A stretch of 63,931 bases of DNA, the filler included, from Collodictyon triciliatum (Eukaryota), in the NCBI GenBank assembly GCA_043381765.1. It is 6 parts of 6 records of this genome, joined end to end, with 100 filler letters (N's around TTAATTAATTAA, not from the genome) between each part and the next. Parts side by side here need not be neighbours in the genome. Positions count along the whole stretch, not along the records: positions 34,391 to 45,733 come from JBHJMP010002424.1; 5 more parts are not named here. The stretch is one strand, 5' to 3'. Position numbers and translations under genes: made by a program. The notes below the pieces were generated by a model. The model worked only from the letters and a program-made list of their open reading frames with translations. It was not told the origin of the DNA and ran no database searches. This document shows positions 194 to 63,931 of the stretch, one piece after another (within the stretch, counting starts at the first letter, position 1; each line of letters begins with the position of its first letter).

Positions 194-225
<32 letters not shown>
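1..225. repeat. T/G low-complexity microsatellite and poly-T at scaffold end
   Basis: (TTTG/TTTTTGTTG)n followed by poly-T, seen directly; it causes the F/V/C-rich spurious ORFs. Confidence 0.95.
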
Positions 226-227
<2 letters not shown>

Positions 228-249
228 TCTTCCTTTCAATTTTGCGCAG

Positions 250-336
250 GATGGTGAAGATGTTGGCTTTGGTTCGCTAGCCATTTTCTGCAAGGGACGC
301 TACTTGGGTGGAATCCCTCATGTTATCGCTTTATGA
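250..336 (+). CDS. Probable terminal exon of an unidentified gene (DGEDVGFGSLAIFCKGRYLGGIPHVIAL*)
   Basis: Long pyrimidine tract ending in ...gcgcag acceptor, then an ordinary-composition frame ending in TGA; convergent with NAT10. Product not recognised. Confidence 0.45.
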   Translation, partial: DGEDVGFGSLAIFCKGRYLGGIPHVIAL

Positions 337-8143: not shown

Positions 8144-9141
8144 TTCCTTCGAGAAAACCTAGGCAATAGACTAGAGAAAAAAAAGGAAAGAGAGAAAAAA
8201 CAAGGCTTGTGAGTCTGGCGGCCCGCACAAAGAAGTGCTTCGCAGTCACTTATCAGCCTATTTTGGCATCGCAGCAAAATGGTGGGAAGGAAAAGCGGAA
8301 GATACGACTGATCTTTGGGATCGTATTGTTCGGAAAGGCTGCTCAGCCTGTTCGCACGTCTTTGAAGTCTTGCTTGTAGTTTACTCGGGATTTGCGGGCA
8401 GGTAAAAAAGAACGACGCTAAGCAACAAGACCATGAAACAAAAACAAATCAAAAAACCCACCTGTGTGGTCTTTTCCAGAATAGGTATATATTCGGTGTA
8501 ATAGGCTTTGGCAGGCGGTTGTGATAGAACCACGGAAGGGTTTTCTGCAAATTGTCCGAGCTCGGCGCTGCACAAGACAAGACAAGGCAATACAATACAA
8601 TACAAGACAAGACAAGACAAGACAACACACAACAGAGATGCAGATGCAAATACCCTTCAAAAATGTATTGTCCAATCACACGATTTCATAATTCGTGGGT
8701 GCAATTCATTTAATGGGCGAACTTTTTTCTTTCAAGCCAGGTAAAATCCGGACGAGTTGCGAATCGCAAGCAGAATCTTTTCCTTCATTTCAACATCCGT
8801 GGGATATGGACGAAGCTTCAACAAATTTGTACGGGTGAGGCCTTCTTGATTTGCCCCAATTCATTTAAACTCCAGAAAGTGAGTCAGTGATAGCGAGGTG
8901 GTTGGGTGGGCGACCCAACTGATTGATTTGTTACGTGGGTAGCAGGGGTTGGATGTGTTGTGGGAGATATCTCACGACATATTCCCACATCTCTCTTCGC
9001 TTGCGGTCAGAGTAGCGAAGAATGCGAGCGTGTTTCAGCAGGCTGTTCGGGAAGCTATATTGCAAGAGGCTCTCAAGCCTGGATACATTGATTTCTCGTT
9101 CGGGCGAATCATTAGAGCGAGAGAATGCCCGCACACCCCAA

Positions 9142-10915
9142 GGAAAGTTCATCTATATAAACATATTCTTGGGTTTTTTTTTATTATCTGAATCTTGAAT
9201 TTGAAATACCTATCTTTTCAAACGATAATGACACCGCCAAGCCGTCTGTTTGTAACATGTATTTAAAATTCTAGTATCTTTGATGAAAGACCCTCTTCTT
9301 CATTTCAAAGAAATCATCCCATAGGGTCTCTTTTCATCCTGAGATATTCTTCAGTAATGTTTTTCTAGACAATACTAATAGACCTATCAAACGTGCAGTA
9401 TCTTGAGTAATATGACATGGTACATAATTAGTTCTTTTAAAGATTGGTTGTAGCAGTTTGGTTCCAATGTCCTCAAAAATGCGATTCATGTAAATCAGAC
9501 ATGGTATGTACTTATTTGAATTGACTTCGATGTCATATTCGATACTATTTACAATATCGCTAGGAATGATGTGATGCAAAGCGTTATACCCCATTCTTCG
9601 TATTGTTCCGGTATTTCGAGTTTCTTGAAGATGGTTTTTTTTTAACTTTCGTAACCCTGTCTTTTTAATAGCTTCCGTAATATTCTCATCTTTAGGAACC
9701 GTTTGATTTATAAAGCGCAGCAAACTCTTTTCAAAATGCTCCTTAATGTTATTATGATAAGCTGTTAACATTTACTTTGCCAAGTACGGTAGTACACGAG
9801 ACAGTCTAACCAACATAAAGCGTTCTTCTCGGGACAAAAGGAATCGAAAATCATTGAGATAAAAAGTCATCAGTCAAATCTCATATATGGATGTTTTAAT
9901 CTTGCGAGTCTATCTTATGAAACTATTCCGACTATCTTAAAAACGCACAAAAAAGAAACATTTTATCGATTGTTGAGACTTGTTGTGATTTCAATGTGTC
10001 ACATCTTGCAAACAGATAAGTGTCGGTAACCAAATTATGACACAATATAACCGTATCGTTGATTTTGTCATAGTCATCCGCATTCTTTACAATCGACTTT
10101 AGAGATGCTTTCACATTTCAATGGCCTGGTTTTCCGGACTTAAGATTCCTAGACTCAAGACGTTTCTTTTCTTCATGTGAAAGTCTTTGTTTTACTTTTT
10201 TTTTCTTTTAGAAAACTACCAAGTTCTCAATTTAATAAAACCTTAGTCAATCAGCCAATTTAATGAAAGAAAAAAAGAAAAACTGCATAAAATCAATTTA
10301 TGTAAAATTAAGCATCTACCGAGACTCTCAAAATGTGCGCATTGCGGCAAACAAACACACAAAGTTTTTTTTTTTTTTTACAAGTGATTTTTGGACAAAA
10401 CGCTGAGAGCCGATTCGGCGAGTTCGAAAGGACGGCCGTATAGCCATTGCGACTGAAAGTCAACATATCGGCCCCAAACAACATGATTACCGATGCAAGT
10501 GTGGATAGTATGCTTTTTTGATATGCATGTTTGGTGGCAGTTTTACAGGGTGGGTTCTATCTGGGCCAAGGAAACGGCTTGTTTGTATTTTTTGAATTTT
10601 TGAGTTTTAATATAACATAAATGAAAATAAAATATAAATTGATTACAGGAATAGTATGAGATTGTTAAGTATTTTTAACCTTACTATGTATACTAATCAC
10701 ACTATTATATTATTCAGGTTGTTTCTTGGATTCGTCAAGGCTCCTGCTTTGTCAATCCAGATTTAATTCTATGGTTGTCTGTGCTATAAATTGCTATATA
10801 TGTGCACACTTTCGTTGCATAAAAAGTGTTGTGCTTAGAAGGGATAAAACCAAGTTCATCGCAACCTTTGTAATGAAGTTAACGCATTTACAGGCTGAAT
10901 GAGACCGAAGAGAAA
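9142..10915 (-). mobile_element. Fanzor element copy A, 3'-truncated and pseudogenised (no RuvC part)
   Basis: Reverse complement aligns continuously by eye with 40900-42788. ATG at 10176. Fragments KASLKSIVKNADDYDKINDTV and MLTAYHNNIKEHF...LLRFINQ. Homology stops after ..EYVYIDELS at about 9142. Confidence 0.9.
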
Positions 10916-11385
10916 ATAAAAAGGAAAAAGGAAAAAGGAAAAAGAAAAGAGAAAGAGAAATAGGATAAAAGAAATAAGATAAAGGAAAGAGGAAAAAGGA
11001 ATAGAAAAAGAAACGGATGAACGAATCAGAGCAACTAATACAGAGCACTATACACATACTTATCTTGTTGCCCGTTGGTCGATGGCTAGAGTTCAATAGG
11101 TCTTTTTTTATTCCCCTTTATTACTATTTTTTTCAATGAGCCCGCTCCGTCTTATTAGTAGGTTGTTGACTCACGGGTCGGTGGCAGCTGGCGTCTTGGT
11201 CGTCGGTGTGTCTCGGTGCATAACCTGTTGTTAAGGATGTAGTCAAGTGACCTTTTCGCTCTCTGCGTTGGCTGCGTCGGCCTTCACGGTTTGCGTACGA
11301 TCAGTAGGCATTCCTTAGGGCAGGGCTGTGGCGCCGATCTCGTCCTTCTCGGGGATCCCTCTTTCCGATCGTGTTTTTTTTTTTC

Positions 11386-11485
11386 NNNNNNNNNNNNNNN
11401 NNNNNNNNNNNNNNNNNNNNNNNNNNNNNTTAATTAATTAANNNNNNNNNNNNNNNNNNNNNNNNNNNNNNNNNNNNNNNNNNNN
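11386..11485. other. Artificial scaffold spacer N44-TTAATTAATTAA-N44
   Basis: Exactly 100 nt with stops in all six frames. Identical spacers at 22843-22942, 34291-34390, 45734-45833 and 57168-57267. Confidence 0.97.
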
Positions 11486-13107: not shown

Positions 13108-19592
<6,485 letters not shown>

Positions 19593-35759: not shown

Positions 35760-38700
35760 TTAGAAATATCTAATCGAAGCACTATGACAAGGTAACCTTA
35801 CATAAATGGTATACCTCCTGCTATTACCCACTCAGAGGCAAATTAGTCAAAGAAATGCTGGATATGATAAACAAGGATAGGAGAGGCGAGCTTGTTCGTT
35901 TTAATGATATTCAGAACATTATTTCTTCGATGAAATCCCTCATTCATGAATTACCAGGAAAATCACAATGTATGTCTTGATCATTTAATGTGCGCACAAA
36001 CTGCGCTCAATCATAACTTTTTGAATCAAATTGAAAGCACATTAAAAGATAAAACCGATGCAAAATTATAACAAATATATAATCATATAACATATTCTTT
36101 TTTGAAAATGAAATAAATAGCCTCCTTTATGCCGAGTGTTGGAAGAAAAGTAGTCCTTTACGCTCGAGATTTTGAGGAACCTTTCATGAAAGACACTGAA
36201 AGCGCCATGGTGTCATTGTCTCGAATTTTTATGAATACAGATAGTGTATCAGATTACCTGTGCAAGGTGGACGATTGTTTGGGGCGAGAACTTCATCGCG
36301 CACAAGAATTTTTGCAACCCACAATAATTCCAAAGGTAATCCTCGATAAAAATAACTAATGGCTCGTAGTATGACCGTAGCCATTTTTAATTTTTTAAAC
36401 AACTTTTTTTTATTCTGATATATCTTTTTAATCTTTTTATGAATTACCCATTTCAGTTGAGAGGCATCATTCTACAACAACTGATTGGATCACAAATGCA
36501 CCGCATATCAGACCAACTGAATATGATTTTTGCTGAAGATAGACAAATTGGTAATGTCTCCTGAAAGTTAAAAAACTTCAAAAAATGCAAAAAAAATTCT
36601 CCATCAAATAGATCAAATTTCATCGATTCAACAGACTAATAAATATTTTCACTTGGTATTCAATAAAGATCTGTCTAGAATATACACGCTTTTCAAATAT
36701 AATACATCGTGGCTGTCCATCTTGGGTGAAAAATTTGAATCCTATCTTATCGGAAAGAGCTCTACAATTATGGTTGCCTTAAAGCAAACTGAAGTAAGAT
36801 GCCAAAATAAACATAAATCGAAAATTTTGCGTACATGGGCTAAATTAATTTTCTGGAAATTCACAATTCTCTCTCAAAAATGCATAAAAGAATGCCAAGA
36901 CATCGGTTGATTCCCTCATTGCTTTTATTCGAAAAGCGACAGATTACACTGTTGACACATTTCAACGAGATAGTGAAATGAATGTTATTCTTGGAAAAGT
37001 AAGTTTGGATAACTCTATTTTTTTAAATCTGTTATATGTTCCGATAAATTCATTTATACGGCTATACTTGGTAATATATAATTTGTTGGTTTTCTTTCAT
37101 TAGACATGCAGGTTAATGCTGTCCAAATTCGATGCAATATCAGAAACAACATGCAGGCTTCTTGATGAGCTTTTAAGAAAAGGAAAAAGGAAAGTCGATG
37201 AAAGAGAATGGGAAAATCAGCTCGACGGATTCGTAAGGCATCTCATTGAATCCCGAATTCATATTGCCATTTAAATCTCATTCACATCATTGTAAAAGTG
37301 ATGTTCCCTAACAGCTTTTGCGTAATATACAATCATACGATTTAATCATTTTTCTTCTTGATAGCTACTGTTATTCAAATATTTGTCTGATAAAGACAAC
37401 TTCCAAGTTTGTTCTAATTTTATTTATTACATGATTAATTTTTGCTCATTCGTCAGACCTATTTATCTAATTTTTATTTTATTTTCATTTAAAAAATGAC
37501 CAACTTAATACCGATTGGGTAGCACATGTATGGTCGTTTTCTAAGCCGGAGGCTGTTATCACAGCAAAGTATAGGAAATGACCAAGAGAAACTTGTAATT
37601 TCTAAATTGAAGGTATTGCGTGACCTTATGAACTGACACTCCATTTTGCTAAGGGAATGATATATTGATAAAAAAAACAACAGCATTTCTTTAATTTTTC
37701 TTTTGAAAAAAAAAAACCATAACATGATACTATATGAATGATGGATGATTTATGCCTGTATGAGCTAACTTCCTTTTATCGTAGGAAATATGTGGTTACG
37801 ATTACACTGTTAAGTTTCAGAGGATGATATCAGACCTCGATATTAGTACAGACATAAACAACCACTACCGACAAATGCACCCATCATTGCAAAGTAATAA
37901 AATGCATATTTTAATATATCAACCAATTGTTATATATATTTCGATGATATTCCGAAATTTAAGATATCTAGAGCAAGCCTTCCTTTTCTTTTCTTTCCTT
38001 TTCAAAATTAAGAAATAATAAGCGTCGCATTATAGTACGACTTTATATCACCCGAACTAAACTTGTCATTGATTCACTCATGAATGGTTTCTCCATGTGG
38101 AACATATAACCGATGATTTGTAATCGCAGGCGAGTTTTCGGTTTATGTACTGACATCAAATATGTGGCCGCTTTCAGCTACATCACAGCTATCAATCTTA
38201 CCAAAAAACGTTTGTCAACTATTTTAGTTCAAAAGCTTTTATAACTTGAAAAAAATCTTTTTTTTTTTTTTTTACAAGCGCTGCATGATAAAAGATTAGG
38301 AAGAAAATTAGATTTACACCTCCTCAATTCTTATACCTCTATATTAAATAATATTAGATGCAAGACTCGATAGATTCTTTCGAGCAGTTTTACCATAAAG
38401 CACATCCGAACAGAAAATTATTCTGGAACTATCTTCTTAGTAGAGGCGATGTCAAGTTTCAAGGGTATCCGAAACCGTACGAAGTGAACATGTCTGTGCT
38501 TCAAATAAGGTAATCCAAGCGTGAACACGCCATCTCCTTCGCTTCGTTTTCAATTAATGCAATCAACCTCCCCACTTCATTCGTCATAGTAATTGATAGA
38601 AATTATATGAAAAAAACAAACAAAGAGACAAAGAAACAAACTAACAATCTAACAAACTAACAAACAAACTAACAAACAAACTAACAAACAAACTAACTAA

Positions 38701-39839
38701 CAAACTAACAAATTAACAAATTAACAAACTAACAAACTAACAAACTAACAAACTACTTTGAATCGAATAAAGGAAAAAAAAACTAACAAACTAACAAACT
38801 AACAAACTAAAAATCAAACAAAAAAACAAAAAAACAAACAAACAAAAGCAGCTGCTACTTATATTTCGAAAATACTTTTAGTATCCTGATGCACTTTAAC
38901 AAGAATGAAGCGCAGACCCACGGAGTTTCCATCGCATCTTTACATTCAATCACCGGAATCGTGCAAGACTTACTGGTTCAGCAAGTCCAGGCACTTTTGC
39001 AATTAAAAGTTCTCAAGGTAAATTAGCGTTCACCTTTGTGGGTTTTTTATTCCCAAAAACCCTTTAGAATATGTCCAAAAAGGTATGATTAGGAGTTTGT
39101 ATGTCCGATATCCAAAACAAAACAAAACAAAACAAAACAAAACAAAACAAAACAAAACAAAACAAAACAAAACAAAACAAAACAAAACAAAACAAAACAA
39201 AACAAAACAAAACAATCCAGAAAGCAAATGAATCGGACCTATCTCAACCATCCGACATCGTATTACTGAACAGCGATTTTGTCAGGTTCTTGTTAATTAT
39301 GGATTACACTCTTTTGATATATAATTTTCTTAACTGTGAAACAAACAAAAGCGAGCGCATAAAAGTCAAGATTGTTTCGGTACATGAGTCAAGAGAAGAA
39401 AAATTAAAGCAATCAAAACATCTCGAAGCAGATCGTAGATATGTTCTGGAAGTGATTTTTTTTTTAAAAAAAAAACAGAATGACAATTCAAATCCATTTT
39501 GTACTTAAAAATGACACTGGGGTGAATCATAATTTTCTTTTGTATTTGTATAGGCTGTTTGTGTTAGAATAATGAAAACCAGAAAAGTGATGAATTACGA
39601 GGCACTGCTAGCCGAGGTTCGACAAAATAATTGCTTATTTTATGCGGTGATAGCTAGTCTATTACTACATGGTTCGCCTAATATATAATACAAAAATATC
39701 ACATTTCAAGGTCATGAAGCAAGTATCAGACCGATTCCAGCCATCGCGCATCTTGGTCAAACAAATTATCGAGACACTGATTGAAAAGGAGTATTTGTCT
39801 AGAAACGCGGACCCCTCTCTTCTCAATTATGTCGCATAA
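35760..39839 (+). CDS. Cullin-family E3 ligase scaffold (divergent; 5' part missing or in gap)
   Basis: MINKDRRGE, YARDFEEPF, LFKYLSDKDNFQ..YGRFLSRRLL, CGYDYTVKFQRMISDL, VLTSNMWP, FYHKAHPNRKLFW, neddylation domain EADRRYVLEAVCVRIMKTRK...LIEKEYLSR...YVA*. Confidence 0.93.
39113..39214. repeat. Intronic (CAAAA)n microsatellite
   Basis: Seen directly. Confidence 0.95.
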
Positions 39840-40720
39840 AAGAGTCAAAAATAAAACTATATAAATCAAAATCAAAATCAAAATCAAATAATAAAATCAA
39901 ATCGAAAGTACGTCTGAAAAGGGAGTATTTTATTTATTTATCAATACCCGAGAATATCTTTGCCTGAGAAATCGACCAATGAGTAAGTAGTAACAAAAAT
40001 AAAAAAAAAAGTATATCACCGTCTACTACTATGAATTAAAATATCTCTTGCTAGCTTCAACGCTCAATAGTACTTTTTTTTTTATATACCTCCAGCGTCA
40101 CTTTTTGTAATGAACGTTCATGTGCCTGGGTTTGGAATAGACAGGCTCCACTGGTTCTTGGGAATCACCATTGTGATGCTTTTCATCGGTTTTCTCTTGT
40201 GTTGGAAGCACCGCACAAGCCTCATATCTTACTAGATAAAAGAAAACTCTGCAAAATAGATACGACGTCACTGTCGAAATGCACTTTTGTTGACTCATCT
40301 CATGAAATAGTTGCGATTCGCTTGTCTCTAAAACACAGCCAGCACTATGTGACGTGGATTGAAGCCTGGATAATAAAGATTCCAGATTTATATATATTCC
40401 AGAATATTCGAAGCTGCATTTGGCCTTGCGATCGCATCCAACTCGGATTGCTTTGCCCCTGAAAACCCTCTGCCAAAGAGCAGCGATCGGCAGCGGGCAG
40501 GGACAAAGAGAATCCGCAGGGAGGGAAACGCAATAGGCGATCGAAGACATGAGCGTCACTTACGTCACGGCAGAGGAGGCGGCCGCGTTCTTTGTGCAGC
40601 AGAAGCAAGATCAGGCGAATCGGGTTGGTTTGCTCAGCTACTTGAAAGCTTTTGTCTTTTCGAAGTTTGACTGGCCGTATGAGAATAAAAAGCGGCTAAA
40701 GGAATTCCGTCACTCAGCCA

Positions 40721-40900
40721 TTTTCCTTTTTCCTTTTTCCTTTTTCCTTTTTCCTTTTTCCTTTTTCCTTTTTCCCTTTTCCCTTTTCCCTTTTCCCTTT
40801 TCCCTTTTTCCTTTTTCCTTTTTCCTTTTTCCTTTTTCCTTTTTCCTTTTCCCTTTTTCCCTTTTCTTTTTCTTTTTCTTTTTCTTTTTCTTTTCTTTTC
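40721..40900. repeat. (CCTTTTT)n pyrimidine microsatellite abutting the Fanzor element's left end
   Basis: Seen directly. The same unit (AAAAAGG on +) abuts copy A at about 10918-10945. Confidence 0.9.
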
Positions 40901-41190
40901 TTTCTCTTAGGTCACGTTCAACCTGTAAATGGATAAAATTCATTGCAAAGGTTGTGACGAACTTGGTTTTATCCCTTTCAAGGCACAACACTTTTTATAC
41001 AACGAAAGTGTACCCATAGAAAGCAATTTATTGCACAGACAACCATCGAATTAAATCTGGATTGACGAAAGCAGGAGCTTTGATGAACCCAAGAAACAAC
41101 CTGAATCATATAATAGTATAGATAGTCTATATAGTAAATATTAAAAATACTTGATAATCTCTTTCTGTTCCTATAATCAATTTACATTTT

Positions 41191-41293
41191 CCACCTGGCC
41201 AACAAGTAGCGTCCATGTAAACGATGGCTAGCGAACCAAAGCCAACACCCCCCCTCGGTCCTGCACAAAAGTTGAAAGGAAGAATAAAAAAAA
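41191..41293 (+). mobile_element. 103-bp retroposed insertion (SINE or 5'-truncated LINE end) with target-site duplication
   Basis: Absent from copy A. Flanked by ATAATCAATTTACATTTT (41173-41190) and ATAATCAATTTATATTTT (41294-41311). Ends in AATAAA plus an A-run. Confidence 0.8.
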
Positions 41294-41741
41294 ATAATCA
41301 ATTTATATTTTATTTTATATTTTTATATCATATCATTAAAATTCAAAAAGACAAACAAGCCCTTGCGTTGGCCCAGACAGAACCCACACCATAAACCTGC
41401 CACCAAACATGCATTTCAAAAAAAGCATACTGTCCACATTTGCGGCGGTAATCATGTTGTTTGGAGCCGATATGTTAACTTTCAGTTGCAATAGCTATAC
41501 GGCCGTCCTTTCGAACTCGCCGAATCGGCTCTCAGCGTTTTGTTTCATATCACTTGTAAAAAAAACTTCGCGCGTTTGTTTGCCGCAATGCGCATATTTT
41601 GAGTCTCGGTAGATGCTTAATTTTACCTGAATTGATTTTTTGCAGTTTATTTATTTGACCAATAGACTGATTGACTAAAGATTTATTAAAATTGAAAACT
41701 CAGTGGTTTTCTAAAGGAAAAAGCAAAACGAAGACTTTCAG

Positions 41742-43691
41742 ATGAAGAAAAGAAAGCGTCTTGAGTCTGAGAATCTAAAGCCTGTAAAACCACACTATCA
41801 AAATGTAAAAATGTCTCTAAAGTCGACTGCAAAGAATGCGGATGACTATGACAAAATCAACGATACGGTTTTATTGTGTCATAATTTGGTTACCGAAACT
41901 TGTCTGTTTGCAAGATGTTACACACTGAAATCACAACTCCCAACAACCGATGAAATGAAAGTTTTTTTTGTACGCTTTGAAGACTGTTGGAATAGTTTCA
42001 CAAGATAACCCCGCAAGATTTAAAACATCCAGATATGAGTAAAGATATGATGATTTTTTATCTCAATGATTTTCGATTCCATTTGTCCCGAGAAGAACGC
42101 TTTCCGTTGGTTGGACTGTCTTATGTATTACCGTACTTGGCGAAGCAAATGTTAACAGCTTATCATAATAACATTAAGGAACATTTTGTAAAGAGATTAC
42201 TGCGCTTTATAAACCAAACAGTCTCTAAACATGAGAATATTACGGAAGCTATTAAAAAGGCAGAGTTGCGAAAGTTAAAAAAAAAAAAAAACCATCTTCA
42301 AGAAACTCGAAATACCGGAACAATATGAAGAATGGACTACAACGCATTTGCATCGTATCATCCCAGCGATATTGTAAATGGTATCGAATATAACGTCAAA
42401 GTCAATCCAAAGAAGTACATTCCATGTCTGATTTACATGAATTGCATTTTTGAGGACACCGGAACCAAACTGTTTCAACCAATCCCTACAAGAACTAACA
42501 ATATACCATGGCATAATACTTTAAATAACGCATGTTTGATAGATATGTTTGTATCAACTGGAAAAACATCATTATTGAAGAATATATCAGGATGCAAAGA
42601 GACCCAATGGGATAAGTTCTTTGAAATGAAGAAGAGGGTCATTCATCAAAGAGACTACAATTTTAAATACATGATACAAACAGACGGCTTGGCGGTGTCG
42701 TTATTGTTTGAGAAGAAAGTTATTTCAAATTCAAAATTCAAATATAATCGAAATACCCAAGAATATGTTTATATAGATAAACTTTCCGAAGAGCATTTAT
42801 ATTTATTAGCGACAAAAAAAATAAAAATAAAATAGTTGGAGTAGACGCAGGCAAGTTTAATTTGGTTTACATGGTGGATGAGACAGGTAAGAAATTACGT
42901 TACACAACACACCAAAGAAGACATGATAGCAAATCTCTTAAAAATCACAAAATACTCTTGCGCGAGAAAAAAAAGTACAATGATTTCAGGGATATATATG
43001 GCAACAGATTTACAAAGTGCTATTTCTTTTGGTGCCATGACTTTTGAAGAGAATCAGCGGTTTAAGACATCAAGAGTATCTTTAATCGATTTAGAGAGAA
43101 CTAAGTAAACACATTTCATGCACGGTCGATTATGAAAAATTTCGAAAGTATATATCTATGAAATCAAGATACCAGATAGAATTATCCAGATTTTATGAGC
43201 ACGTAACTTTTCGAAAGATGAGATGGAGACAGTATGTTAATACAAAAAGAAGTGGACAATTGTTTACGGACCGAATCTAAAAGAGATTTGGCAAGGATGT
43301 CGTACTGGCGTATGGAGACTGGAGCAGAAAATCTCCGGTGAAACATTTTATGCCGACAATCGAAAGAGGATTACGAAAAATACAATCCAAACGTTTTGAA
43401 ACAGTTAGTGTAAATAAATTTAGAACCTTCAAGATGTGCTGCAACCGCGAAAAAGAACTGGAATGAATGAAACTGAAAGGAATACAAAAAAAGGTGTATA
43501 GATGTCTCATGTGTAAAGTATGCAATCGCTCAGAAAGCAAACAAACTGTATTCTTGACAAGGGACTTTAACAGTGCTAATAATATACTTAACAAAGTTCT
43601 TTTTATCCTTCAAAAAAAGCATACATATTTCCCTAAAAAACAGGCTGTCAGGTGTTTCCTGGCGGACTTCACCACTACACAATCTTTGTGA
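41742..43691 (+). pseudogene. Fanzor (TnpB-derived RuvC RNA-guided endonuclease; Fanzor1/giant-virus-like type) pseudogene
   Basis: Basic N-terminus MKKRKR, YMIQTDGLAVSLLF, RuvC-I IVGVDAGKFNLVYM (D at 42844), LRYT..QRR, LAYGDWS...MPT..RGLRK, RuvC-II SVNKFRT (expected E is K at 43416), C-terminal CC..R/CKVC, RuvC-III TRDFNSANNIL (D at 43563). Several frameshifts and stops. Confidence 0.92.
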
Positions 43692-43750
43692 AAAAAGTGG
43701 TGAGACCTTGGATACTAGCGCACCAGGTTTACCAATGGAAATACGGTATA
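43646..43750 (+). ncRNA. Candidate Fanzor omega-RNA scaffold
   Basis: Nested inverted repeats at the ORF end: TCACCACT(43669-76)/AGTGGTGA(43696-703), CACAA/TTGTG, CCTGG(43658-62)/CCAGG(43723-27), GTGTTTCC(43652-59)/GGAAATAC(43737-44). This position is typical of TnpB/Fanzor omega-RNAs. Confidence 0.6.
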
Positions 43751-43959
43751 CTCCTTTTATTTATAAATACATATTGTTACCAAGCATGTAAATACAGCAG
43801 CAGCTCATGCGCAAATTGGACTGGCGCCGACATCCCCCATTTTCGAGACACCTGCAACTACCACGTGAAACTAAGATTCGAGTGGTCTTCCAAACATTTT
43901 GCATTTATTTTAGCTACAGAGCAGACTTTGTCCGATAAATGAATTGACCATCGAAATCT

Positions 43960-45420
43960 CTACAGATCATTAGCATCAAACCCAACCCTCGATGGGTCAC
44001 GCTTGCTTCCAGAGATAGGAGGTTTGATGCTTGTCGGACGTTTGCTTCCTTTCGCAATATTCTCAAGTACAGGCGGGTGCCCAACTTTGCTTGTTCGAAT
44101 TTCCATGATGTCCTCGTAATTTCGCATCTCGACAGCGTTCTCAGTTGAGGCAAAGGCTCCTGCTGCATTCTCATCCTGAACACAAAATAATAGGATTAAT
44201 ACACATGATTAAATCGTAATCGTAGGGTATCATCTTTTGTTTACTCTTATCATAGAGAAGCAAAATTTATTACAAATCTCATCCAGGTGTATGACATATA
44301 TCACATCGCTTTTTCCATTTCATATTTGATGGTTCACCGTAATCACTCACCAAATCATTCCTGTGTTCGTCATTAGAGGCCCCAAACTTCCTTCTAAATT
44401 CAAGCCGCTCATCATCTATGTGCAGCACCAAATATCGTTATTTTTTGAAATAAAATGAAAATGATATTGAAAATGCCTGATGCAAAGCTCTTGCGTATGG
44501 GTCTTCTTCCATTCGTGCCGACTTCTCTTTGCTTCAGTCTACGTGGTTTTGGTTTTGGTTGTTCTTTTTCTAAAACTGTTTCTGGATTCACATTTTCGAC
44601 AGGAGACGACGGTTCAGCCACTTGAACATACATTTCCTGTTTTATTTATTTTTGAAAAAAAAAATCAATTCAGAGAACACAAGAATCGTAATGCAGAGCT
44701 TACTTTCCCTTGTAAACATGAAAAGCACGTCATAAAAAGGTTTCTATAATAGGTTTATATGGATTTATACGCTAAAGTCATCAGTGCCAACAGCCATATC
44801 TCGCTTCGTATGCTCGGGCTCACGAACTGGTTCATACATAAACAATTTAAAATACGTCAGACATAATTGGTGCACTCAAAACGGCAATAACAATCCATAT
44901 ATTAAATTTATTTCGTCTTTAAGAAAAAAAACTTTCTTTCAAGGTTGTATGCACTAAAGAGGGATTCCCTCATCATTTAATTCCTTAACCATATCACTTG
45001 ATCGTGATTGAGTTCTGGGTCATCCTTTTAGTTCTCTCAACTTGGTCTTCATTCCTGTTGTTTATATTAAATCAATAACTCACTACCTGGTTCTGACTTT
45101 CCAGTCCAGTCTCTTCGCTCAAGCCGTTTCTTTCTACGCTCAGCAAGTTCTGTAGCGGAATAGTTAACAGATTGGTGCGGCTACAGGAAAGACACAGGGA
45201 AAGAGGTTTCATTCTCGTTAAAAAAAAAAAAAAAGAAGAAAGAAGGCAGAATGAATTCGATTTAGACAGTTCTCTGTGCGAGAAGGTTAATCATAAAATA
45301 CTTTTGACATCATTCGCTGGTAAAATATTAGGGTATTGCAGCGATTACCAATCTTTGGTGTCTCAAACGTTGGTATTCATGCAACTCTTCCCTTGCCGTC
45401 GCAAGCATATCTTCAATCTA
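43960..45420 (-). CDS. C-terminal exons of an uncharacterised hydrophilic protein
   Basis: GT-AG bounded exons, e.g. IEDMLATAREELHEYQRLRHQRL, VAEPSSPVENVNPETVLEKEQPKPKPRR and last exon DENAAGAF...VGFDANDL*. No family recognised. Confidence 0.55.
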
Positions 45421-45524
45421 TCAGATAAAAGCATTAATCTGATAAATCATCAAGAGAATTCTGACTGTTTGTCACTAATCATTTCCTTGAAGCAATAAAC
45501 CGCAAAATTCAAAATACGTAGGAG

Positions 45525-45733
45525 AAAGAGAAAAGAGAAAAGAGAACAAAGAGAGAAAAAAAGAGAGAAAAAAAGAGAGAAAAAAAGAGAGAAAAAAAGA
45601 GAGAAAACAAGAGAGAAAACAAGAGAGAGAAAACAAGAGAGAGAAAAAGAGAGAGAAAAAGAGAGAGAAAAAGAGAGAGAAAAAGAGAGAGAAAAAGAGA
45701 GAGAAAAAGAGAGAGAAAAAGAGAGAGAAAAAG
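45525..45733. repeat. GA-rich (AAAAAGAGAGAG)n repeat at scaffold end
   Basis: Seen directly. Confidence 0.95.
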
Positions 45734-45833
45734 NNNNNNNNNNNNNNNNNNNNNNNNNNNNNNNNNNNNNNNNNNNNTTAATTAATTAANNNNNNNNNNN
45801 NNNNNNNNNNNNNNNNNNNNNNNNNNNNNNNNN

Positions 45834-59108: not shown

Positions 59109-61060
59109 AAAATCGATGGTATGTTGATCTCTATAAAATGGCCATAATTTGTGCTTTTTCCTATTCAGAAAGAGTATATTTGCAGACAGTAGAATCTACA
59201 TCTTCCAAGTAATTAAATAAATAGGGTCAACTTGCTTATTTATGAATCTAGGTTTGCAAGATGAAAGGCAGATGTCACGCACAGGTCATGTACTCTTTTT
59301 CTGTGAGTATTTTTTTAACAACACATGTGTCACATTTCAAGATCGAAACCCCGAATTAAAATTACTCCACCTCAGAAGATGGCTTCTGTGCAAATCGTAT
59401 CTACCTCAATTTAACTTATTGAAGTGAATCTATGTGTGTTTTGTTGACTCATTACTATGTATTTTTGTCATGAAGACCGTTTTTCTTATATTACTACAAT
59501 TTTCGCACCGATTATAAAAAAATTCAATTATATGATAAAGTATCAATCTATCAACACTCTGGACTCTGTTTACACAGTATGAGTGATTGATTTCATGATG
59601 ATTTTAAATCTTAAGTTACCAATCTAATAGCACGCTTTCTCAATGATATGTCACAAAAGCCATGGAAAGCAAGGTATACCAATTTCTTTTCATCTACACT
59701 AATATTCTTGTGCTTTATATTAACAAAATTTTATTTTTGAGAATCATGAGGATTTATTGTATTCACATTTAATTCCGCTAAATAATATTATGTTTAACAC
59801 AATATTCAAAATTATTAGGTTTACACTTCAAGGATTATAGAAAAAAGATTATATGGTGCCTTATTTCGGAATCTACATTTAAAGGGTTTTGTCTAAGTTT
59901 AATTTGGAATAATCATCTTTTCAATTGAAAACAATATTTACAGTTTTTATGAAACAATTTACTGTACAACATATTTTCATCTATTGCAATATTGATTTTG
60001 ATTTTATAATTAACTAATAGTTAAAGCAAAAAATTATCACAATATCATGAAGATCTCGTAGTGATGTGCAAAATAGTACCAAATAAATCCAAAGAACATT
60101 TTTGGGCTTAATCTGGTATAAAGAAAGAGTTTAATTAAAATATTACGCACTAAGAAGTTATATAAATTTGTTTTCTTTTCAATTTCAATTTAATTATGAT
60201 ACCATTTTCTTTTTTTTTCGTCCATAAGTACTAATTTCTATAAATTTAAAAAAACGGAAGTTCTAGAATTCATTATTCAAACCAAAAAATTTCTTCATTC
60301 CTTTACCTATTTTGCATATCATTTTAAAATTCATGACTTATACTTAATATGATGAAAAATAGTTGTATTAAGCCGATGAAGTATAATTTATAATTTTGGA
60401 TAGTGCATACCTTTGAAGTAAATGATAGCTATTTGAAAAGAACTTAAAACTAAATTTCAATTTGTTTGAACTCCTTTTTTTGGGTTTCAAAGTATTGCAA
60501 AGCTAATTGTAAAATAGTGAAATTTTTTAGTCAGTCACATAGATGGGTGCAAATTTTGTCGCATATAAAATACAAAAATGTAACCAAATGCTGTTGCTTA
60601 ATTAAATGAACGCATAATTAGACCAATACTTTATTTCTTATTTAATTAAAAAAACAGAAACCAAAATTGACAATTCGAATGAAGTCTTTAACTCAAAAAT
60701 TAATGTATTTCAACGTATAATTTATTTTTTCTTGAATACTGATAGAAAAATCTACATTAAAAATTTTCTCATGATTTACGTTAAATGGAAAAAAAGATGA
60801 GTGATGGTCATTATCTGGACATGCTTTATTGATAACAAAAAAATTTTTTACTTAGAATCTATCGAAAGACAAAAAATGACAAGAATTGCATCATATAATT
60901 AGCAATAATAAATGAATAATAAACTTTTCAATGCGAGATAAACCTGTGTCGGTTCTATAATTATAATATGAAAATATTTACGATTGTTCTAATTTTTGAT
61001 AAATTTACTTTTTAAGCCTCTGTGTGAGCATTTCTTCATTAGATATCGAACCTCATTCAA

Positions 61061-63931
61061 ATGGATGGTGCTGAACCTCTCTGTTTCTGGTGAGCAAAAT
61101 ATCAGTGAGATTCATTAATTTCAAGTTTGAGGTTATTTAATCTTGTAATAGGCGAGATATATTTGCGTCAGAAGAAAGTAAAAGTATCTTGCGACCCAAT
61201 TATTTCTTCGAATGGGAAGGACCTCCTCTCAAAGTAACTGTGACGTATGTTTTACATAATTGATAAAATCTATATTGTGTATTAGTCTCTTGATTGAATT
61301 TATTTGACAGACGCTCAAAGCTCTTAGTTGCAATTGTTGTCATATCTTTCACTTTGGCATCAGTGTCCCCAAACCGGCCCCTCCAAAAGTATGTTTTTAT
61401 TCAAAAAGCGATGCATTTTGGAATATCAACTAAAACAAAGAAAACAGATGCCAGTATACAAGAGATGAGCTACTTTCGATGAAAATCGATGAATCTTTCC
61501 AAATTCTTTTGGGCCATTACGATGAAACATGTCCTTCTCCAAATGAAAATGAAAATTATCAATTAGAAATTATGAATGCAGAAAAACAAGAAAAATATTC
61601 ATACCAAAAGAATGACAAATCTAAATGGAATTATGATATCAAGAAGCCCAATATCGAGGCTGAATTCTGTAATGAAATTCGCTCATCAAAACGAAATGAG
61701 AGTGAGCAATTCGTTTTGAGTAATGAAGTGAGCCGAAATACGGAAGATAGTAATACTGTGAGTCAATATGAACTCCTTGTTCAGCTCTACAAAATACTTG
61801 GAGGTGATGGTTGGTATATGAGCTATGGATGGAATGATATTAACACACCGATTTGTTGGTGGTATAAGATATCCTGTTCTTGGAATTGCCTGTATGAACA
61901 ATATTGGGTAATTTTTTTAAGCCATGACAAATTCATCTCGATTTTAATTATCTTTGAATTGAAAAAAGGAAAAATCGATTTTAATCATAGTATGATTATG
62001 CTTATAGGACAATTCATGTCCCATAGTTGAAATAAGTCTGCTAGGAAATAATCTCAATGGCGATATTGAAGCTGCCTTTAAGATTTTTGAGAGACTCCCA
62101 TTTTTGTATTTCTTGGACTTGAGTTACAACTCCATTTTTGGAAATCTTCCAAACTTCAATCTCCCAAGTATACATTATCTCTACTTCTATGGAAATCGAA
62201 TTGTTGGAACGATTTCAGACTTTCACGGAATGCCGAATATTGTAAATTTCGATATCCAAGGGAATAAATTAGAAGGAACAATACCAAATTTTTCTGGAGT
62301 CCAGTCCCTGAAGATTTTATTAATTGGAATGAGCGATAAACTCACAGGTTCTGATATTTTTTTTAATATTATCATTCTAGATTTTTATTATAATTTGTAT
62401 TTCAGGAACTTTGCCTGATTTCTCGGGATTACCCAATGTTCAGATTCTTGAAATTAGGGGCTGCAAAATTTATGGTTTGTATTTACTTAATTCTAAATTA
62501 TGGAACAAAGCACTAAATTAACATCACAGGAACGGTTCCAAACTTCAGTGGAATTCCCAGTGTCGAAAAAATTGATTTTGGCGGCAACCAGTTGAATGGC
62601 ATGATTTGTGATTATTACACATAAAGTCGATTAAGCACTAATTCTACATCACAGGAACGATTCCAAACTTCAGCGGACTTCCTTATGTTTCTACGATTGT
62701 TCTCACCTACAACCAACTCACTGGTAATATTTATTATAACTGCATATTTGATTTATTTAGTATTAATCCTATACCACAGGAGCGATTCCAAACTTCAGTG
62801 GCATTCCGTACACTAAAGAACTTTTCCTTTTCTACAATCAACTGACTGGTAAGCATTGTAAATACTGCATAATAAATTAATTAAGCTCTAACATTGTACC
62901 GAAGGACCAATTCCAAACTTCAGTGGTATTCCAAATACTAAAGTATTGGGACTTTTCAACAACCAAATTGAAGGTAATCTTTATTTGCTAATTTCAATTA
63001 CTCCAGATATAAATACTCACTTTATTACAGGAACGATTCCAAACTTCAGTGGCATTACTTATGTTTCAGATATTTATCTTGGAATAAATAGATTAACAGG
63101 TAATTCATTATTTCTTATATTATGGATGAAAGCTAACGTTACATAACAGGAACTATTCCAAACTTCGATGGCATTCCAAGTGTGAGGCTGATAGATGCTC
63201 CCAATAACTATCTGACAGGCAATTTTCAATTTTTTTAGAATAGAATTGTTACTAGCATTAACTCTATACTTCAGGATCAGTTCCAAACTTCAGCGGAATT
63301 CAACATGTCTCCAATATTTTACTTGGAATAAATCAACTAAATGGTAACTTTGAAGTTTATTATGAATGAATTTTTGATGAAATACTAATTAAATATCCCA
63401 GGAACAGTTCCAAACTTCAATGGAACCCAATATGTCACAGAATTTAAATTGTCATCCAACAAGTTGAGCGGTACATTTTTTTTAAAAGTCATAATTTTAT
63501 AAAATTATATGCTAAATTATGATTTATGATAAGGAACAATACCGGATCTCGAATATCTATATAGTATCATAATTTTGGACTTTTCTGATAATCACTTAAG
63601 CGGTAAGCAAATAAAGAATAAAAATTGAATAAAAAAAGGCAGAAAATACTAATTGGAGGAAGAGATATGGTCAGTACATGTTGAATATATATTTCCCTAA
63701 AAGATTTTTTCTAAATTAATAGGCCAAGTTCCAGCCTTTTATAATTGCTTCAATTTAAATGAAATTTCACTATTCAGAAACAATCTGAACAGCTCTCTCT
63801 CTTCGTTATATTTACCGTTTTTGGGAATATTTGATGCCAGCGAGAATCATATTACAGGCACTATACCAAACAACTGGTACATTCCGTCCATAGAGGAACT
63901 TGACTTATCGAACAACGAAATGATCGGAACT
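61061..63931 (+). CDS. Extracellular LRR (receptor-like) protein: hydrophobic signal/anchor, LRRNT cap, plant/protist-type LRRs; runs off window
   Basis: KLLVAIVVISFTLASV, cap LLVQLYKILGGDGWYMSYGW...ICWWYKISC, repeats LxxLxLxxNxLxGxIPNFSG, ten 69-nt single-repeat exons from 62406 to 63602. Start codon inferred. Confidence 0.92.

What the first reader, a model, noticed from the sequence alone, without database searches (positions are those of the whole stretch)
40900..43750. Fanzor RNA-guided nuclease element family in this protist
Seen: a decayed ORF spanning about 1.9 kb with the complete ordered Fanzor motif set (TDG.AVS, RuvC-I VGVDAG, YGDWS..MPT..GLRK, RuvC-II with E-to-K lesion, Cys cluster, RuvC-III RDFNSA.NI), an NLS-like MKKRKR start and a structured 3' end, plus a second copy on another scaffold. 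Known: Fanzors are eukaryotic TnpB descendants guided by an omega-RNA from the element's right end; this motif style is the one I recall from giant-virus-associated Fanzor1. Inference: a probably uncatalogued family with no visible transposase. An active or reconstructable consensus may exist elsewhere in the genome.
Basis: partly seen in the sequence, partly recalled or inferred. Interest (0 to 1): 0.85.

Follow-up and report, generated by a model that had tools for sequence, protein, structure and literature searches.

The report
Dead Fanzor1 transposon copies, giant-virus kin
This is a broken, non-functional copy of a Fanzor1 RNA-guided nuclease gene from a many-copy repeat family in a microbial eukaryote; its nearest relatives ride on mariner-type transposons in giant-virus genomes, so it adds to a known class and is not a new one.

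Summary
Window 41742-43691 (+) is a collinear Fanzor1 reading frame. Against an intact 648-aa metagenome homologue (P0005, 61.8% identity) it has 7 frameshifts and 3 in-frame stops. It has also lost the catalytic RuvC-II Glu (now Lys), the Pro of the DPG motif and one zinc-finger Cys.

A second copy lies at 10915-9142 (-). It is 3'-truncated, 85-88% identical, and carries different stop codons and almost entirely different frameshifts. The two copies diverged neutrally.

A profile of the family matches the solved Fanzor1 structures at E about 1e-102. A model of the intact homologue superposes on SpuFz1 (TM 0.76-0.81).

The closest relatives with DNA in hand sit on giant-virus contigs. There they lie inside elements bounded by terminal inverted repeats, next to a DDE_3 (Tc1/mariner-type) transposase. 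The window has no transposase.

A covariance model built only from viral 3' ends finds a two-hairpin RNA motif at 43636-43726, across the stop codon. This is probably the omega-RNA scaffold.

Contigs from two small public runs hold 561 and 644 pieces 80-100% alike, so the family has many copies.

Verdict: a new member of a known kind, of moderate interest.

The parts
40901..43795 (+). Copy 1 of the repeat element, minimum extent. The left limit is not resolved: it abuts a CTTTTC-type microsatellite that both copies share. The right limit is approximate.
   Evidence: Similarity to copy 2 starts at 40901, or at 40804 if the microsatellite is included. Contig depth of the family in four runs falls from 80-107 (X1, X3) at 43619-43715 to 10-25 at 43716-43812, and to 0 in all four runs at 43813-43900.
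40901..41741 (+). 5' non-coding part of the element. No ORF here has a family match.
   Evidence: It is conserved between the copies at the same level as the ORF. Pfam finds nothing for ORF 41340-41609. A transposase profile finds nothing.
41191..41300 (+). Secondary insertion of a ~105-nt poly(A)-tailed retroposed unit. It is not part of the Fanzor element.
   Evidence: It is absent from copy 2 (110-nt gap). A second copy lies at 214-306 (-). Depth here is 7183-10237 in X1/X3.
41742..43691 (+). Fanzor1 pseudogene. It is collinear with the 648-aa P0005, at 61.8% identity over 639 codons.
42277..42291 (+). A15 run that holds one frameshift. Copy 2 has the same +1 frame offset at this site, in a run 6 A shorter.
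42835..42852 (+). RuvC-I motif VGVDAG. The Asp is kept (GAC 42844-42846). The Pro of the family's invariant DPG is replaced by Ala (GCA 42847-42849).
   Evidence: weak Pfam OrfB_IS605 match at E 0.0044
43278..43280 (+). In-frame TAA, where P0005 has Glu.
43416..43418 (+). RuvC-II catalytic position. It is Lys (AAA) here, where 46 of 46 aligned family members have Glu.
43437..43448 (+). First zinc-finger pair reduced to CCNR. P0005 has CCNC and P0181 has CCSC.
43464..43466 (+). In-frame TGA. The related decayed copy P0181 has Cys at this position.
43563..43565 (+). RuvC-III Asp (GAC) in TRDFNSANNI, kept.
43636..43726 (+). Conserved two-hairpin RNA motif that spans the stop codon at 43689-43691. 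It is the candidate omega-RNA scaffold.
   Evidence: Covariance model R1, built from 4 viral 3' ends without the window, scores 24.6 bits here, E about 0.005. 89% of cells are paired against 41-50% for slid partners, and 14 of 26 pairs show changes on both sides.
43781..43792 (+). CAAGCATGTAAA. It resembles the outer part of the viral right terminal inverted repeat and may be the right terminus.
   Evidence: It is the only match in the window, but 1.85 matches are expected by chance. Only its position, about 90 nt past the stop where family depth ends, gives it weight. No inverted partner was found upstream.
9142..10915 (-). Copy 2. It holds the 5' region and the first ~348 codons, then is cut off at 9142. 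It has lost its ATG and has 7 stops and 4 frameshifts.

Best explanation
Window 40901 to about 43795 is a dead copy of a many-copy DNA-transposon-derived element whose only gene was a Fanzor1 RNA-guided endonuclease. Shown here: the reading frame is a full-length, intron-less Fanzor1 homologue. It is broken by 7 frameshifts and 3 stops. It has lost the catalytic RuvC-II Glu, the DPG Pro and a zinc-binding Cys, so this copy cannot make an active nuclease. A second copy in the window has decayed independently and neutrally. Both therefore descend from a once-intact element. Also shown: the nearest relatives with DNA in hand lie in giant-virus genomes as elements of about 3.3 kb. These have terminal inverted repeats, a divergently oriented DDE_3 (Tc1/mariner-type) transposase and the Fanzor gene ending just inside the right repeat. 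The last ~100 nt of the gene fold into two hairpins that are kept by compensatory changes, and the same motif is found in the window copy. Inferred from what is established for TnpB and Fanzor: when intact, the 3' end was transcribed as an omega-RNA. Its scaffold is these hairpins and its guide is read from the DNA just beyond the right end. The Fanzor-RNA complex, taken to the nucleus by the basic N-terminus, cut empty or excised donor sites next to a transposon-adjacent motif, so that repair restored the element. The host copies, which lack a transposase, were probably moved in trans by a mariner-type transposase encoded elsewhere or by a virus.
For: Fanzor1 identity: phmmer of the pieces against PDB gives GtFz1 2.9e-8, PpFz1 5.2e-8 and SpuFz1 7.4e-5. 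The family profile gives PpFz1 5.8e-103, SpuFz1 2.8e-102 and GtFz1 2.3e-78. The AlphaFold model of P0005 (pLDDT 86) matches SpuFz with Foldseek E 8e-28 and TM 0.76/0.81. Decay: lesions are listed, and D364, P365, E555 and D604 are invariant in 46 of 46 sequences. Independent neutral decay: none of copy 2's 7 stops is shared with copy 1. Differences by codon position are 50:42:48 over 336 codons, with 87 non-synonymous and 21 synonymous codon changes. Most indels are private. Many copies: 561 and 644 contigs in X1 and X3 match at 80-100%. Viral relatives. Terminal repeats and the element limits in L009. The transposase has a DDE_3 match at 1.3e-13 and lies beside the Fanzor gene in 9 of the 13 loci searched (9 of 12 viral loci and 0 of 1 metagenome locus; about 6 distinct elements). 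The terminal-repeat motif occurs as an inverted pair in 5 loci. Neighbours typical of viral genomes. Tree: the window copy pairs with P0005 (support 100) inside a 41-row clade (support 97) that holds 5 of the 8 viral rows. RNA motif. In L003 the stop codon comes earlier, yet the downstream nucleotides stay conserved. That conservation is therefore not due to protein coding.
Against: There is no terminal inverted repeat pair, no target-site duplication and no transposase in the window, so the type of carrier transposon in the host is inferred only from relatives. The RNA motif rests on 5 sequences, 3 of them close kin. The model's E-value is rough (a factor of about 5 either way), and the pair counts were made on an alignment fitted to the model. 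The model did not find the motif in the more distant loci L001, L004-L008 and L013. No RNA of defined ends was seen. The runs with many copies are only guessed to be RNA. Two or three of the 7 frameshifts lie in or beside A8-A15 runs and could be assembly errors. The +1 shift in the A-run is shared by both copies, so their common ancestor may already have been broken there. The direction of transfer between virus and host is not resolved, because the subclades are joined by an open fork.
Confidence: 0.82

Rival explanations
1. The region is a fragment of an integrated giant-virus genome, not a host-resident transposon family.
For: The closest relatives with DNA in hand are on giant-virus contigs. 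The gene has no introns.
Against: The flanks show microsatellites and no dense ORFs or viral domains. Two copies lie in different pieces of the assembly and share only the element itself. Hundreds of contigs 80-100% alike in two runs point to a dispersed many-copy repeat. The viral terminal-repeat motif and the transposase are absent.
Confidence: 0.05
2. The gene is functional. The breaks would then be assembly errors, an unusual genetic code, or programmed frameshifting.
For: Frameshifts at 42278 and 42815 lie in A15 and A8 runs, and the one at 42985 lies close to another A8 run. Both copies share the +1 offset in the A-run and regain the frame 70-90 nt later through different 1-nt deletions.
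Against: TAA and TGA occur in frame in copy 1, and TGA, TAA and TAG in copy 2. The stops align with Glu, Tyr/Cys and Gln in relatives, not with one residue each. Substitutions removed the invariant Glu, the Pro and a Cys. Codon positions differ evenly between the copies. Copy 2 has no ATG and is truncated.
Confidence: 0.03
3. The copies are dead as genes but are still used as RNA. Their transcripts would keep the omega-RNA scaffold and could load an intact Fanzor made elsewhere in the host, or by an infecting virus.
For: The scaffold motif is still recognisable in a copy whose protein has decayed. Contigs covering the whole element occur in two runs that may be cDNA; from recall, one loose end resembles a template-switching oligo.
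Against: The RNA nature of those runs is only a guess. The motif is no better kept than the neighbouring coding sequence: the C-terminal part is 68% identical to P0005 at protein level. No intact nuclease from the same organism was found.
Confidence: 0.1

Closest known systems
Fanzor1 nucleases with solved structures (SpuFz1 8gkh/9ce*, PpFz1 9cf*, GtFz1 9ce*)
   Same: The family profile matches over the full length (E 2.8e-102, 5.8e-103 and 2.3e-78). The fold of the intact homologue matches (TM 0.64-0.81). The split RuvC has the DPG motif and a Glu six residues before the CxxC, which are the features Yoon et al. give for Fanzors (PMC10711439, passages read). There is a structured RNA at the 3' end.
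   Different: Identity to them is only 17-20% in the structural alignment. The window copy is a pseudogene without the catalytic Glu. Its TAM, guide and cleavage activity are unknown.
Mariner/Tc1-borne Fanzor1 elements (PGv-1, PUl-1 and the Fanzor-only PUl-4 of Bao and Jurka 2013; 'Fanzor1c' of Jiang et al. 2023)
   Same: The relatives in giant-virus contigs have a DDE_3 transposase, a Fanzor1 gene and terminal inverted repeats. One metagenome relative, L001, has the repeats and the Fanzor gene without a transposase, like PUl-4. Virus-borne and host copies are intermingled, as those authors described (PMC3627910 and PMC10530073, passages read).
   Different: I could not compare sequences with the named elements, because none was available in the tools. 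Assignment to 'Fanzor1c' is therefore untested. The window copies show no recognisable repeat pair and no TA duplication.
Bacterial IS200/IS605 and IS607 TnpB with omega-RNA
   Same: The RuvC core is the same: there is a weak Pfam OrfB_IS605 match at RuvC-I (E 0.0044), and TnpB and Cas12f structures appear at Foldseek E 1e-4 to 1e-3. The guide-RNA gene overlaps the 3' end of the ORF.
   Different: The N-terminal half is much larger. The host is a eukaryote or a virus. The partner is a DDE transposase, not a TnpA.
Fanzor2 (for example Acanthamoeba polyphaga mimivirus Fz2, 9b0l)
   Same: It belongs to the same superfamily and is also carried by giant viruses.
   Different: The structural match is weak (E 7e-5, TM 0.21-0.27), and no IS607-type partner is present. 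The window's family is not a member.

Membership tests
Fanzor1 | Significant full-length sequence similarity to established Fanzor1 proteins | tested here: met
   The window pieces match GtFz1 at 2.9e-8, PpFz1 at 5.2e-8 and SpuFz1 at 7.4e-5, in collinear order. The family profile matches at about 1e-102.
Fanzor1 | Bilobed Fanzor1 fold (REC/WED plus split RuvC and TNB) | tested here: met
   This was tested on the intact homologue P0005, not on the broken window copy. The model has pLDDT 86. The top 7 PDB matches are all Fanzor1, with E 8e-28 to 1e-23.
Fanzor1 | RuvC D-E-D catalytic triad present | tested here: not met
   In the window copy both Asp are kept (42844-42846 and 43563-43565) but the Glu is Lys (43416-43418). 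The family itself has all three invariant in 46 of 46 sequences. The copy is therefore an inactivated member by descent.
Fanzor1 | DPG motif at RuvC-I and the alternative Glu six residues before the first CxxC (Yoon et al. 2023) | tested here: inconclusive
   P0005 meets both (VGVDPG; E-FRTSKL-CCNC), and P0181 keeps the Glu and the CxxC. The window copy has DAG, Lys and CCNR: the positions are kept but the residues are mutated.
Fanzor1 | Omega-RNA encoded at the 3' end of the gene, up to the right end of the element | tested here: inconclusive
   A conserved two-hairpin motif lies at 43636-43726 and the fold has z = -2.5. No RNA with defined ends was seen and no protein binding was tested.
Fanzor1 | RNA-guided, TAM-dependent DNA cleavage | not testable with these tools
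   This needs biochemistry with an intact family member.
Fanzor1 | N-terminal nuclear localisation signal (common in Fanzors, not obligatory) | not tested
   Basic N-termini are seen (MKKRKR in the window and P0005, MKRKK in L009, MKKKKK in P0178). No NLS predictor was run.
Tc1/mariner (DDE_3) transposon carrying Fanzor1 | DDE transposase in the element | tested here: not met
   The window has no match by tblastn (best E 0.31, elsewhere in the window) or by a profile of 7 viral transposases. Relatives: 9 of the 13 loci searched have one beside the Fanzor gene.
Tc1/mariner (DDE_3) transposon carrying Fanzor1 | Terminal inverted repeats | tested here: inconclusive
   Relatives have 33-50 bp repeats and the motif occurs as an inverted pair in 5 loci. 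The window has only a right-end look-alike at 43781-43792, which is within chance expectation, and no left partner.
Tc1/mariner (DDE_3) transposon carrying Fanzor1 | TA target-site duplication | not tested
   The ends of the window element are not defined well enough, and I did not resolve the exact viral termini either.
Fanzor2 | Close similarity to IS607-type TnpB/Fanzor2 and an IS607 context | tested here: not met
   ApmFz2 appears only at Foldseek E 7e-5 with TM 0.21. It is not among the PDB sequence hits.

The most novel reading that the evidence does not exclude
The family records an exchange of a mariner-Fanzor1 transposon between giant viruses and their protist host. After the exchange, transposase-less Fanzor-only derivatives would have multiplied to hundreds of copies. 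Their relics would still be transcribed and keep the omega-RNA scaffold, so they could programme an intact Fanzor from the host or from an infecting virus. Dead transposon copies would then be a reservoir of guide RNAs in a virus-host conflict.
Probability: 0.1. Interest if true: 0.7.

Novelty: new member of a known kind. Interest (0 to 1): 0.35.

Why it matters
Fanzors are the eukaryotic RNA-guided nucleases now being developed as compact genome editors. Thousands are already catalogued, many in multiple copies and many on Mariner/Tc1 elements or in large DNA viruses (PMC10530073 and PMC3627910, passages read). A decayed copy adds little by itself.

Three things from this locus are useful:

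- It points to an intact, compact (648 aa) D-E-D relative and to a well-populated clade: 3147 cluster representatives at E <= 1e-3 and 537 at E <= 1e-30.
- It links that clade to complete transposons bounded by terminal repeats in giant-virus genomes. Those transposons give the element ends, a conserved 3' RNA scaffold, and hence candidate guide and TAM positions.
- It gives a concrete host-virus pair of related elements with which horizontal transfer of RNA-guided nucleases could be studied.

Tried and rejected
- The window's own genome is not held, so copies could not be counted or their ends aligned genome-wide.
- Pfam and NCBIfam on the broken pieces gave only a sub-threshold OrfB_IS605 match. 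Even the intact relatives get only weak Cas12f1-like_TNB matches, so the Pfam HMMs are poor detectors of this clade.
- Rfam found no family at gathering score in the whole window, and only sub-threshold matches on the retroposed insert.
- A scan of viral contigs with P0005 or P0018 found nothing. The family alignment was too variable for pattern scanning. P0008 and P0011 did work.
- The metagenome-contig scan gave only one distant locus, L001 at 21% identity.
- A terminal-repeat search in the window found nothing convincing. I tried inverted repeats, blastn-short of the 3' end against both upstream regions and the viral repeat pattern.
- A look-alike of the right-end motif in direct orientation just after the microsatellite (near 40919, seen by eye) was judged too weak to use.
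- No listed holder of the stretch is on record as RNA. The reads gave no molecule ends (table 6).
- Alignment of the L013 3' end failed, so it was left out of the RNA model.
- I did not try to name the organism.
- Paper supplements were closed. The Fanzor catalogues in the supplementary tables of PMC10530073 and PMC10711439 may already list this host or this clade.
Full report
**What the window is.** The 63,931-base window is not one contiguous stretch. It is made of pieces of about 11.4 kb joined by N44-TTAATTAATTAA-N44 spacers. The finding lies in the piece 34391-45733.

**The observation.**
- MKKRKR at the start
- QTDGLAVSL
- VGVDAG
- AYGDW...MPTIERGLRK
- VNKFRTF
- CCNR...CLMCKVC
- TRDFNSANNI

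A search of 5.8 billion proteins found one long relative, P0005. It is 648 aa, comes from a 2.6-kb metagenome contig, and is intact, with the same MKKRKR start and the motifs VGVDPG, VNEFRTSKLCCNC and TRDFNSANNI.

I made a frameshift-aware alignment of P0005 to the window DNA. It matches 639 codons at 61.8% identity, collinearly and without introns. It needs 7 frameshifts, near 41955, 42019, 42278, 42366, 42815, 42985 and 43097. It crosses in-frame stops TGA 41956, TAA 43278 and TGA 43464, and ends at TGA 43689-43691, close to the end of P0005. Two frameshifts lie in A15 and A8 runs and a third lies near another A8 run. Those three may be slippage or assembly errors. The stops and substitutions cannot be explained that way.

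**Is it a Fanzor1?** Pfam sees only a sub-threshold OrfB_IS605 match at VGVDAG (E 0.0044), and NCBIfam sees nothing relevant. Comparison with solved structures is decisive.
- The N-terminal piece matches Guillardia theta Fanzor1 (2.9e-8), Parasitella Fanzor1 (4.1e-5) and Spizellomyces Fanzor1 (0.0017).
- The C-terminal piece matches Parasitella Fanzor1 (5.2e-8), Spizellomyces Fanzor1 (7.4e-5) and Guillardia Fanzor1 (0.02).
- An exhaustive HMMER search with P0005 found 3147 cluster representatives at E <= 1e-3, 1703 at E <= 1e-10 and 537 at E <= 1e-30.
- An alignment of 46 of the 151 family proteins in hand (P0005 plus 45 of the 150 representatives listed) has D364, P365, E555 and D604 invariant.
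- The profile of that alignment matches the three solved Fanzor1 proteins over their full length, at 5.8e-103, 2.8e-102 and 2.3e-78.
- An AlphaFold model of P0005 made with this alignment (pLDDT 86, pTM 0.84) has Fanzor1 structures as its seven best PDB matches (E 8e-28 to 1e-23, TM up to 0.76/0.81). Cas12, TnpB and Fanzor2 structures follow far behind, at E 1e-6 to 1e-3.

The family also shows the two features that Yoon et al. give as typical of Fanzors: DPG at RuvC-I, and the 'alternative' Glu six residues before the first CxxC (PMC10711439, passages read).

**State of the window copy.** Both RuvC Asp codons are kept. The Glu is AAA (Lys) at 43416-43418, DPG has become DAG, and CCNC has become CCNR. 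Together with the frameshifts and stops, this copy cannot encode an active nuclease.

**The second copy.** Copy 2 lies at 10915-9142 (-) in the first piece. It is 84.8% identical over 1521 nt by blastn. By global alignment it has 1533 matches, 209 mismatches and 33 gaps.
- It covers the 5' region and the first ~348 codons, then stops abruptly at 9142, where unrelated sequence follows.
- It has lost the ATG and carries 7 stops and 4 frameshifts.
- None of its stops is shared with copy 1, and most indels are private.
- Differences between the copies fall evenly on codon positions (50:42:48 over 336 codons; 87 non-synonymous and 21 synonymous codon changes). The two copies have therefore drifted neutrally since they separated.
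- The one shared lesion is a +1 offset in the A-run at 42277-42291. Each copy regains the frame 70-90 nt later through a different 1-nt deletion. I read this as homopolymer instability and note it as unexplained.
- Apart from the element itself, the two pieces share nothing.

**Copy number and other copies.** No public run holds the whole stretch. I laid four runs on 41000-43900 at 80% likeness or more.
- Two small runs, X1 and X3, gave 561 and 644 contigs. By likeness class (99+ / 95-99 / 90-95 / under 90) these were 80/130/193/158 and 81/148/243/172.
- Two freshwater metagenomes gave 44 contigs (X2) and 29 contigs (X5). X5 included two contigs with no difference from the window.
- Summed depth covers the whole element and falls to 10-25 in X1/X3 (about 1 or less in X2/X5) at 43716-43812, then to 0 in all four runs at 43813-43900. 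This places the right end of the family near 43730-43810.
- At many positions all the contigs differ from the window copy. Where I could check, the majority letter restores the P0005 residue (43363 gives Gly and 43384 gives Leu).
- The runs are only guessed to be RNA. From recall, one loose end resembles a template-switching oligo, which is a hint of cDNA and no more.
- A short NCBI-sourced protein, P0181 (136 aa, 76% identical over the part it shares), looks like a gene model on another decayed copy of the same subfamily. It keeps the Glu, the CxxC, and a Cys where the window has TGA 43464.
- No intact protein closer than P0005 was found.

**Relatives and their carrier.** The ten best representatives that I looked up are all unnamed metagenome proteins. 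Scanning IMG/VR with two of them found loci on giant-virus contigs.
- L009 is 88% identical to P0008 and lies on a 254-kb contig. L010-L012 are 80% identical, on contigs of 57-173 kb. L013 is 49% identical. L002 is identical to P0011.
- The neighbouring genes are a fused mRNA capping enzyme and guanine-N7 methyltransferase, the small subunit of ribonucleotide reductase, HSP70, and SNF2 and ResIII helicases. This fits large DNA virus genomes.
- L009 and L010 share only a 3.3-kb block (6631-9952), bounded by inverted repeats of 33-50 bp.
- Inside the block, a 346-aa ORF on the opposite strand has HTH and DDE_3 domains (1.3e-13). This is a Tc1/mariner-type transposase.
- The Fanzor gene ends about 20 nt before the right repeat.
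- This transposase lies beside the Fanzor gene in 9 of the 13 loci searched. L001, L005, L007 and L013 have none. L010-L012 are one element, and L004 and L008 are nearly the same element.
- The repeat motif CAARGGTGTAAA occurs as an inverted pair in 5 loci. One of them is L001, where it bounds a Fanzor-only element of about 2.25 kb.
- A FastTree of 96 rows pairs the window read-through with P0005 (support 100) inside a 41-row clade (support 97) that holds 5 of the 8 viral rows. The nearest labelled rows are the L003/L009/L010 viral group. The fork joining the subclades is open, so the direction of transfer is not resolved. Rows outside 560-800 aa were left out.

This arrangement is already in print. 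Bao and Jurka described mariner elements that encode Fanzor1, Fanzor-only elements with mariner repeats and TA duplications, and viral and host Fanzors that intermingle (PMC3627910, passages read). Jiang et al. report up to 122 copies per genome, a preference of 'Fanzor1c' for Mariner/Tc1, and N-terminal nuclear localisation signals in about 60% of Fanzors (PMC10530073, passages read).

**What the window lacks.** There is no trace of the transposase, by tblastn or by a profile of 7 viral transposases against the six frames. No flanking ORF has a transposon domain. No inverted-repeat pair is visible. The only look-alike of the viral right end is CAAGCATGTAAA at 43781-43792. The number of matches is within chance (1.85 expected per window), but it lies on the right strand about 90 nt past the stop, where family depth ends. 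The 840-nt region upstream of the ATG is conserved between the copies and has no recognisable coding content. A 110-nt poly(A)-tailed unit at 41191-41300 is a later insertion into copy 1.

**The 3' RNA.**
- Alone, 43540-43800 folds with z = -2.5.
- When aligned with three viral 3' ends, two adjacent hairpins line up, with compensatory changes.
- The four viral sequences give the same structure without the window.
- A covariance model built from those four only finds, outside its training set, one hit at E < 0.01 in 205,662 bases: window 43636-43726 (+), 24.6 bits, E about 0.005. This is exactly at the 3' end of the Fanzor frame.
- On the five-sequence alignment, 89% of cells pair, against 41-50% when partners are slid. 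Fourteen of 26 pairs change on both sides, and 0 of 500 shuffles reach the observed covariation.
- In L003 the stop codon comes right after the second hairpin, yet the downstream nucleotides remain conserved. In the window the stop lies inside the second hairpin. The conservation is therefore in the nucleic acid, not in the protein.
- Caveats: there are only five sequences and three are close kin; the alignment is fitted to the model; the E-value is rough; and the more distant loci were not detected.

**Mechanism.**
- *Shown here:* descent from Fanzor1, the inactivating lesions, independent neutral decay, many copies, the mariner-type carrier in viral relatives, and a conserved 3' structure.
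- *Inferred from established TnpB and Fanzor biology* (structures with omega-RNA and TAM-dependent cleavage; PMC11423790, passages read): the intact ancestor made an omega-RNA from its 3' end, with the guide read from the flank beyond the right terminus. It cut TAM-adjacent empty sites and so favoured retention or copying of the element.
- *Inferred without direct support:* the host copies lack a transposase and were probably mobilised in trans.

**Verdict.** The finding is real and correctly interpreted. It is a new member of a well-described kind, not a new kind of system.

Noticed in passing
window 41191-41300 (+) and 214-306 (-): A ~105-nt unit that ends in an AATAAA-like signal and a poly(A) run. 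It is inserted into Fanzor copy 1 and is absent from copy 2. A second copy lies in another piece of the window. Contig depth over it in runs X1 and X3 is 7183-10237, against a few hundred for the rest of the element. It looks like a retroposed, very abundant short transcript or a SINE. It has no Rfam family (best E 0.14).
   Followed up: partly
window 11386-11485, 22843-22942, 34291-34390, 45734-45833, 57168-57267: Spacers of the form N44-TTAATTAATTAA-N44 show that the window is a concatenation of pieces of about 11.4 kb. Distances across them are meaningless.
   Followed up: yes
window 40715-40905, 10916-11385, 14500-14650, 21600-22540, 27389-27500, 56800-57167: Long CTTTTC/CTTTC-type microsatellites recur in several pieces. 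One directly abuts the left limit of both Fanzor copies, which hides the true left end of the element.
   Followed up: partly
window 42277-42291 and copy 2 around 9633-9643: Both copies carry a +1 frame offset in an A-run (15 A in copy 1, six fewer in copy 2). Each regains the frame 70-90 nt downstream through a different 1-nt deletion (42361 in copy 1; the equivalent of 42346 in copy 2). Two independent compensations are unexpected under pure neutral decay.
   Followed up: partly
L001 1971-4215: A metagenome relative at 21% identity. Its Fanzor ORF (2382-4100) is bounded by an inverted pair of the same terminal motif as in the viral elements, and it has no transposase. It is a Fanzor-only derivative of about 2.25 kb.
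   Followed up: partly
L009 7740-7949 (+): A 69-aa basic ORF lies between the transposase and the Fanzor gene of the giant-virus element. I did not check whether it is conserved in the other loci.
   Followed up: no
window 32135-32932 (+) and 48202-49239 (-): Probable host coding sequence: an open frame with a Rieske-like CPFHGW motif (named by eye, not searched), and a 345-aa frame that looks coiled-coil. The region 28000-34000 is GC-richer (0.43-0.49) than the rest (about 0.35).
   Followed up: no
window 57716-58000 / 58835-59113 and 62479-63423: An inverted repeat pair about 285 nt long at 74% identity, and a diverged tandem array with a period of about 125-150 nt. Neither is related to the Fanzor element.
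   Followed up: no
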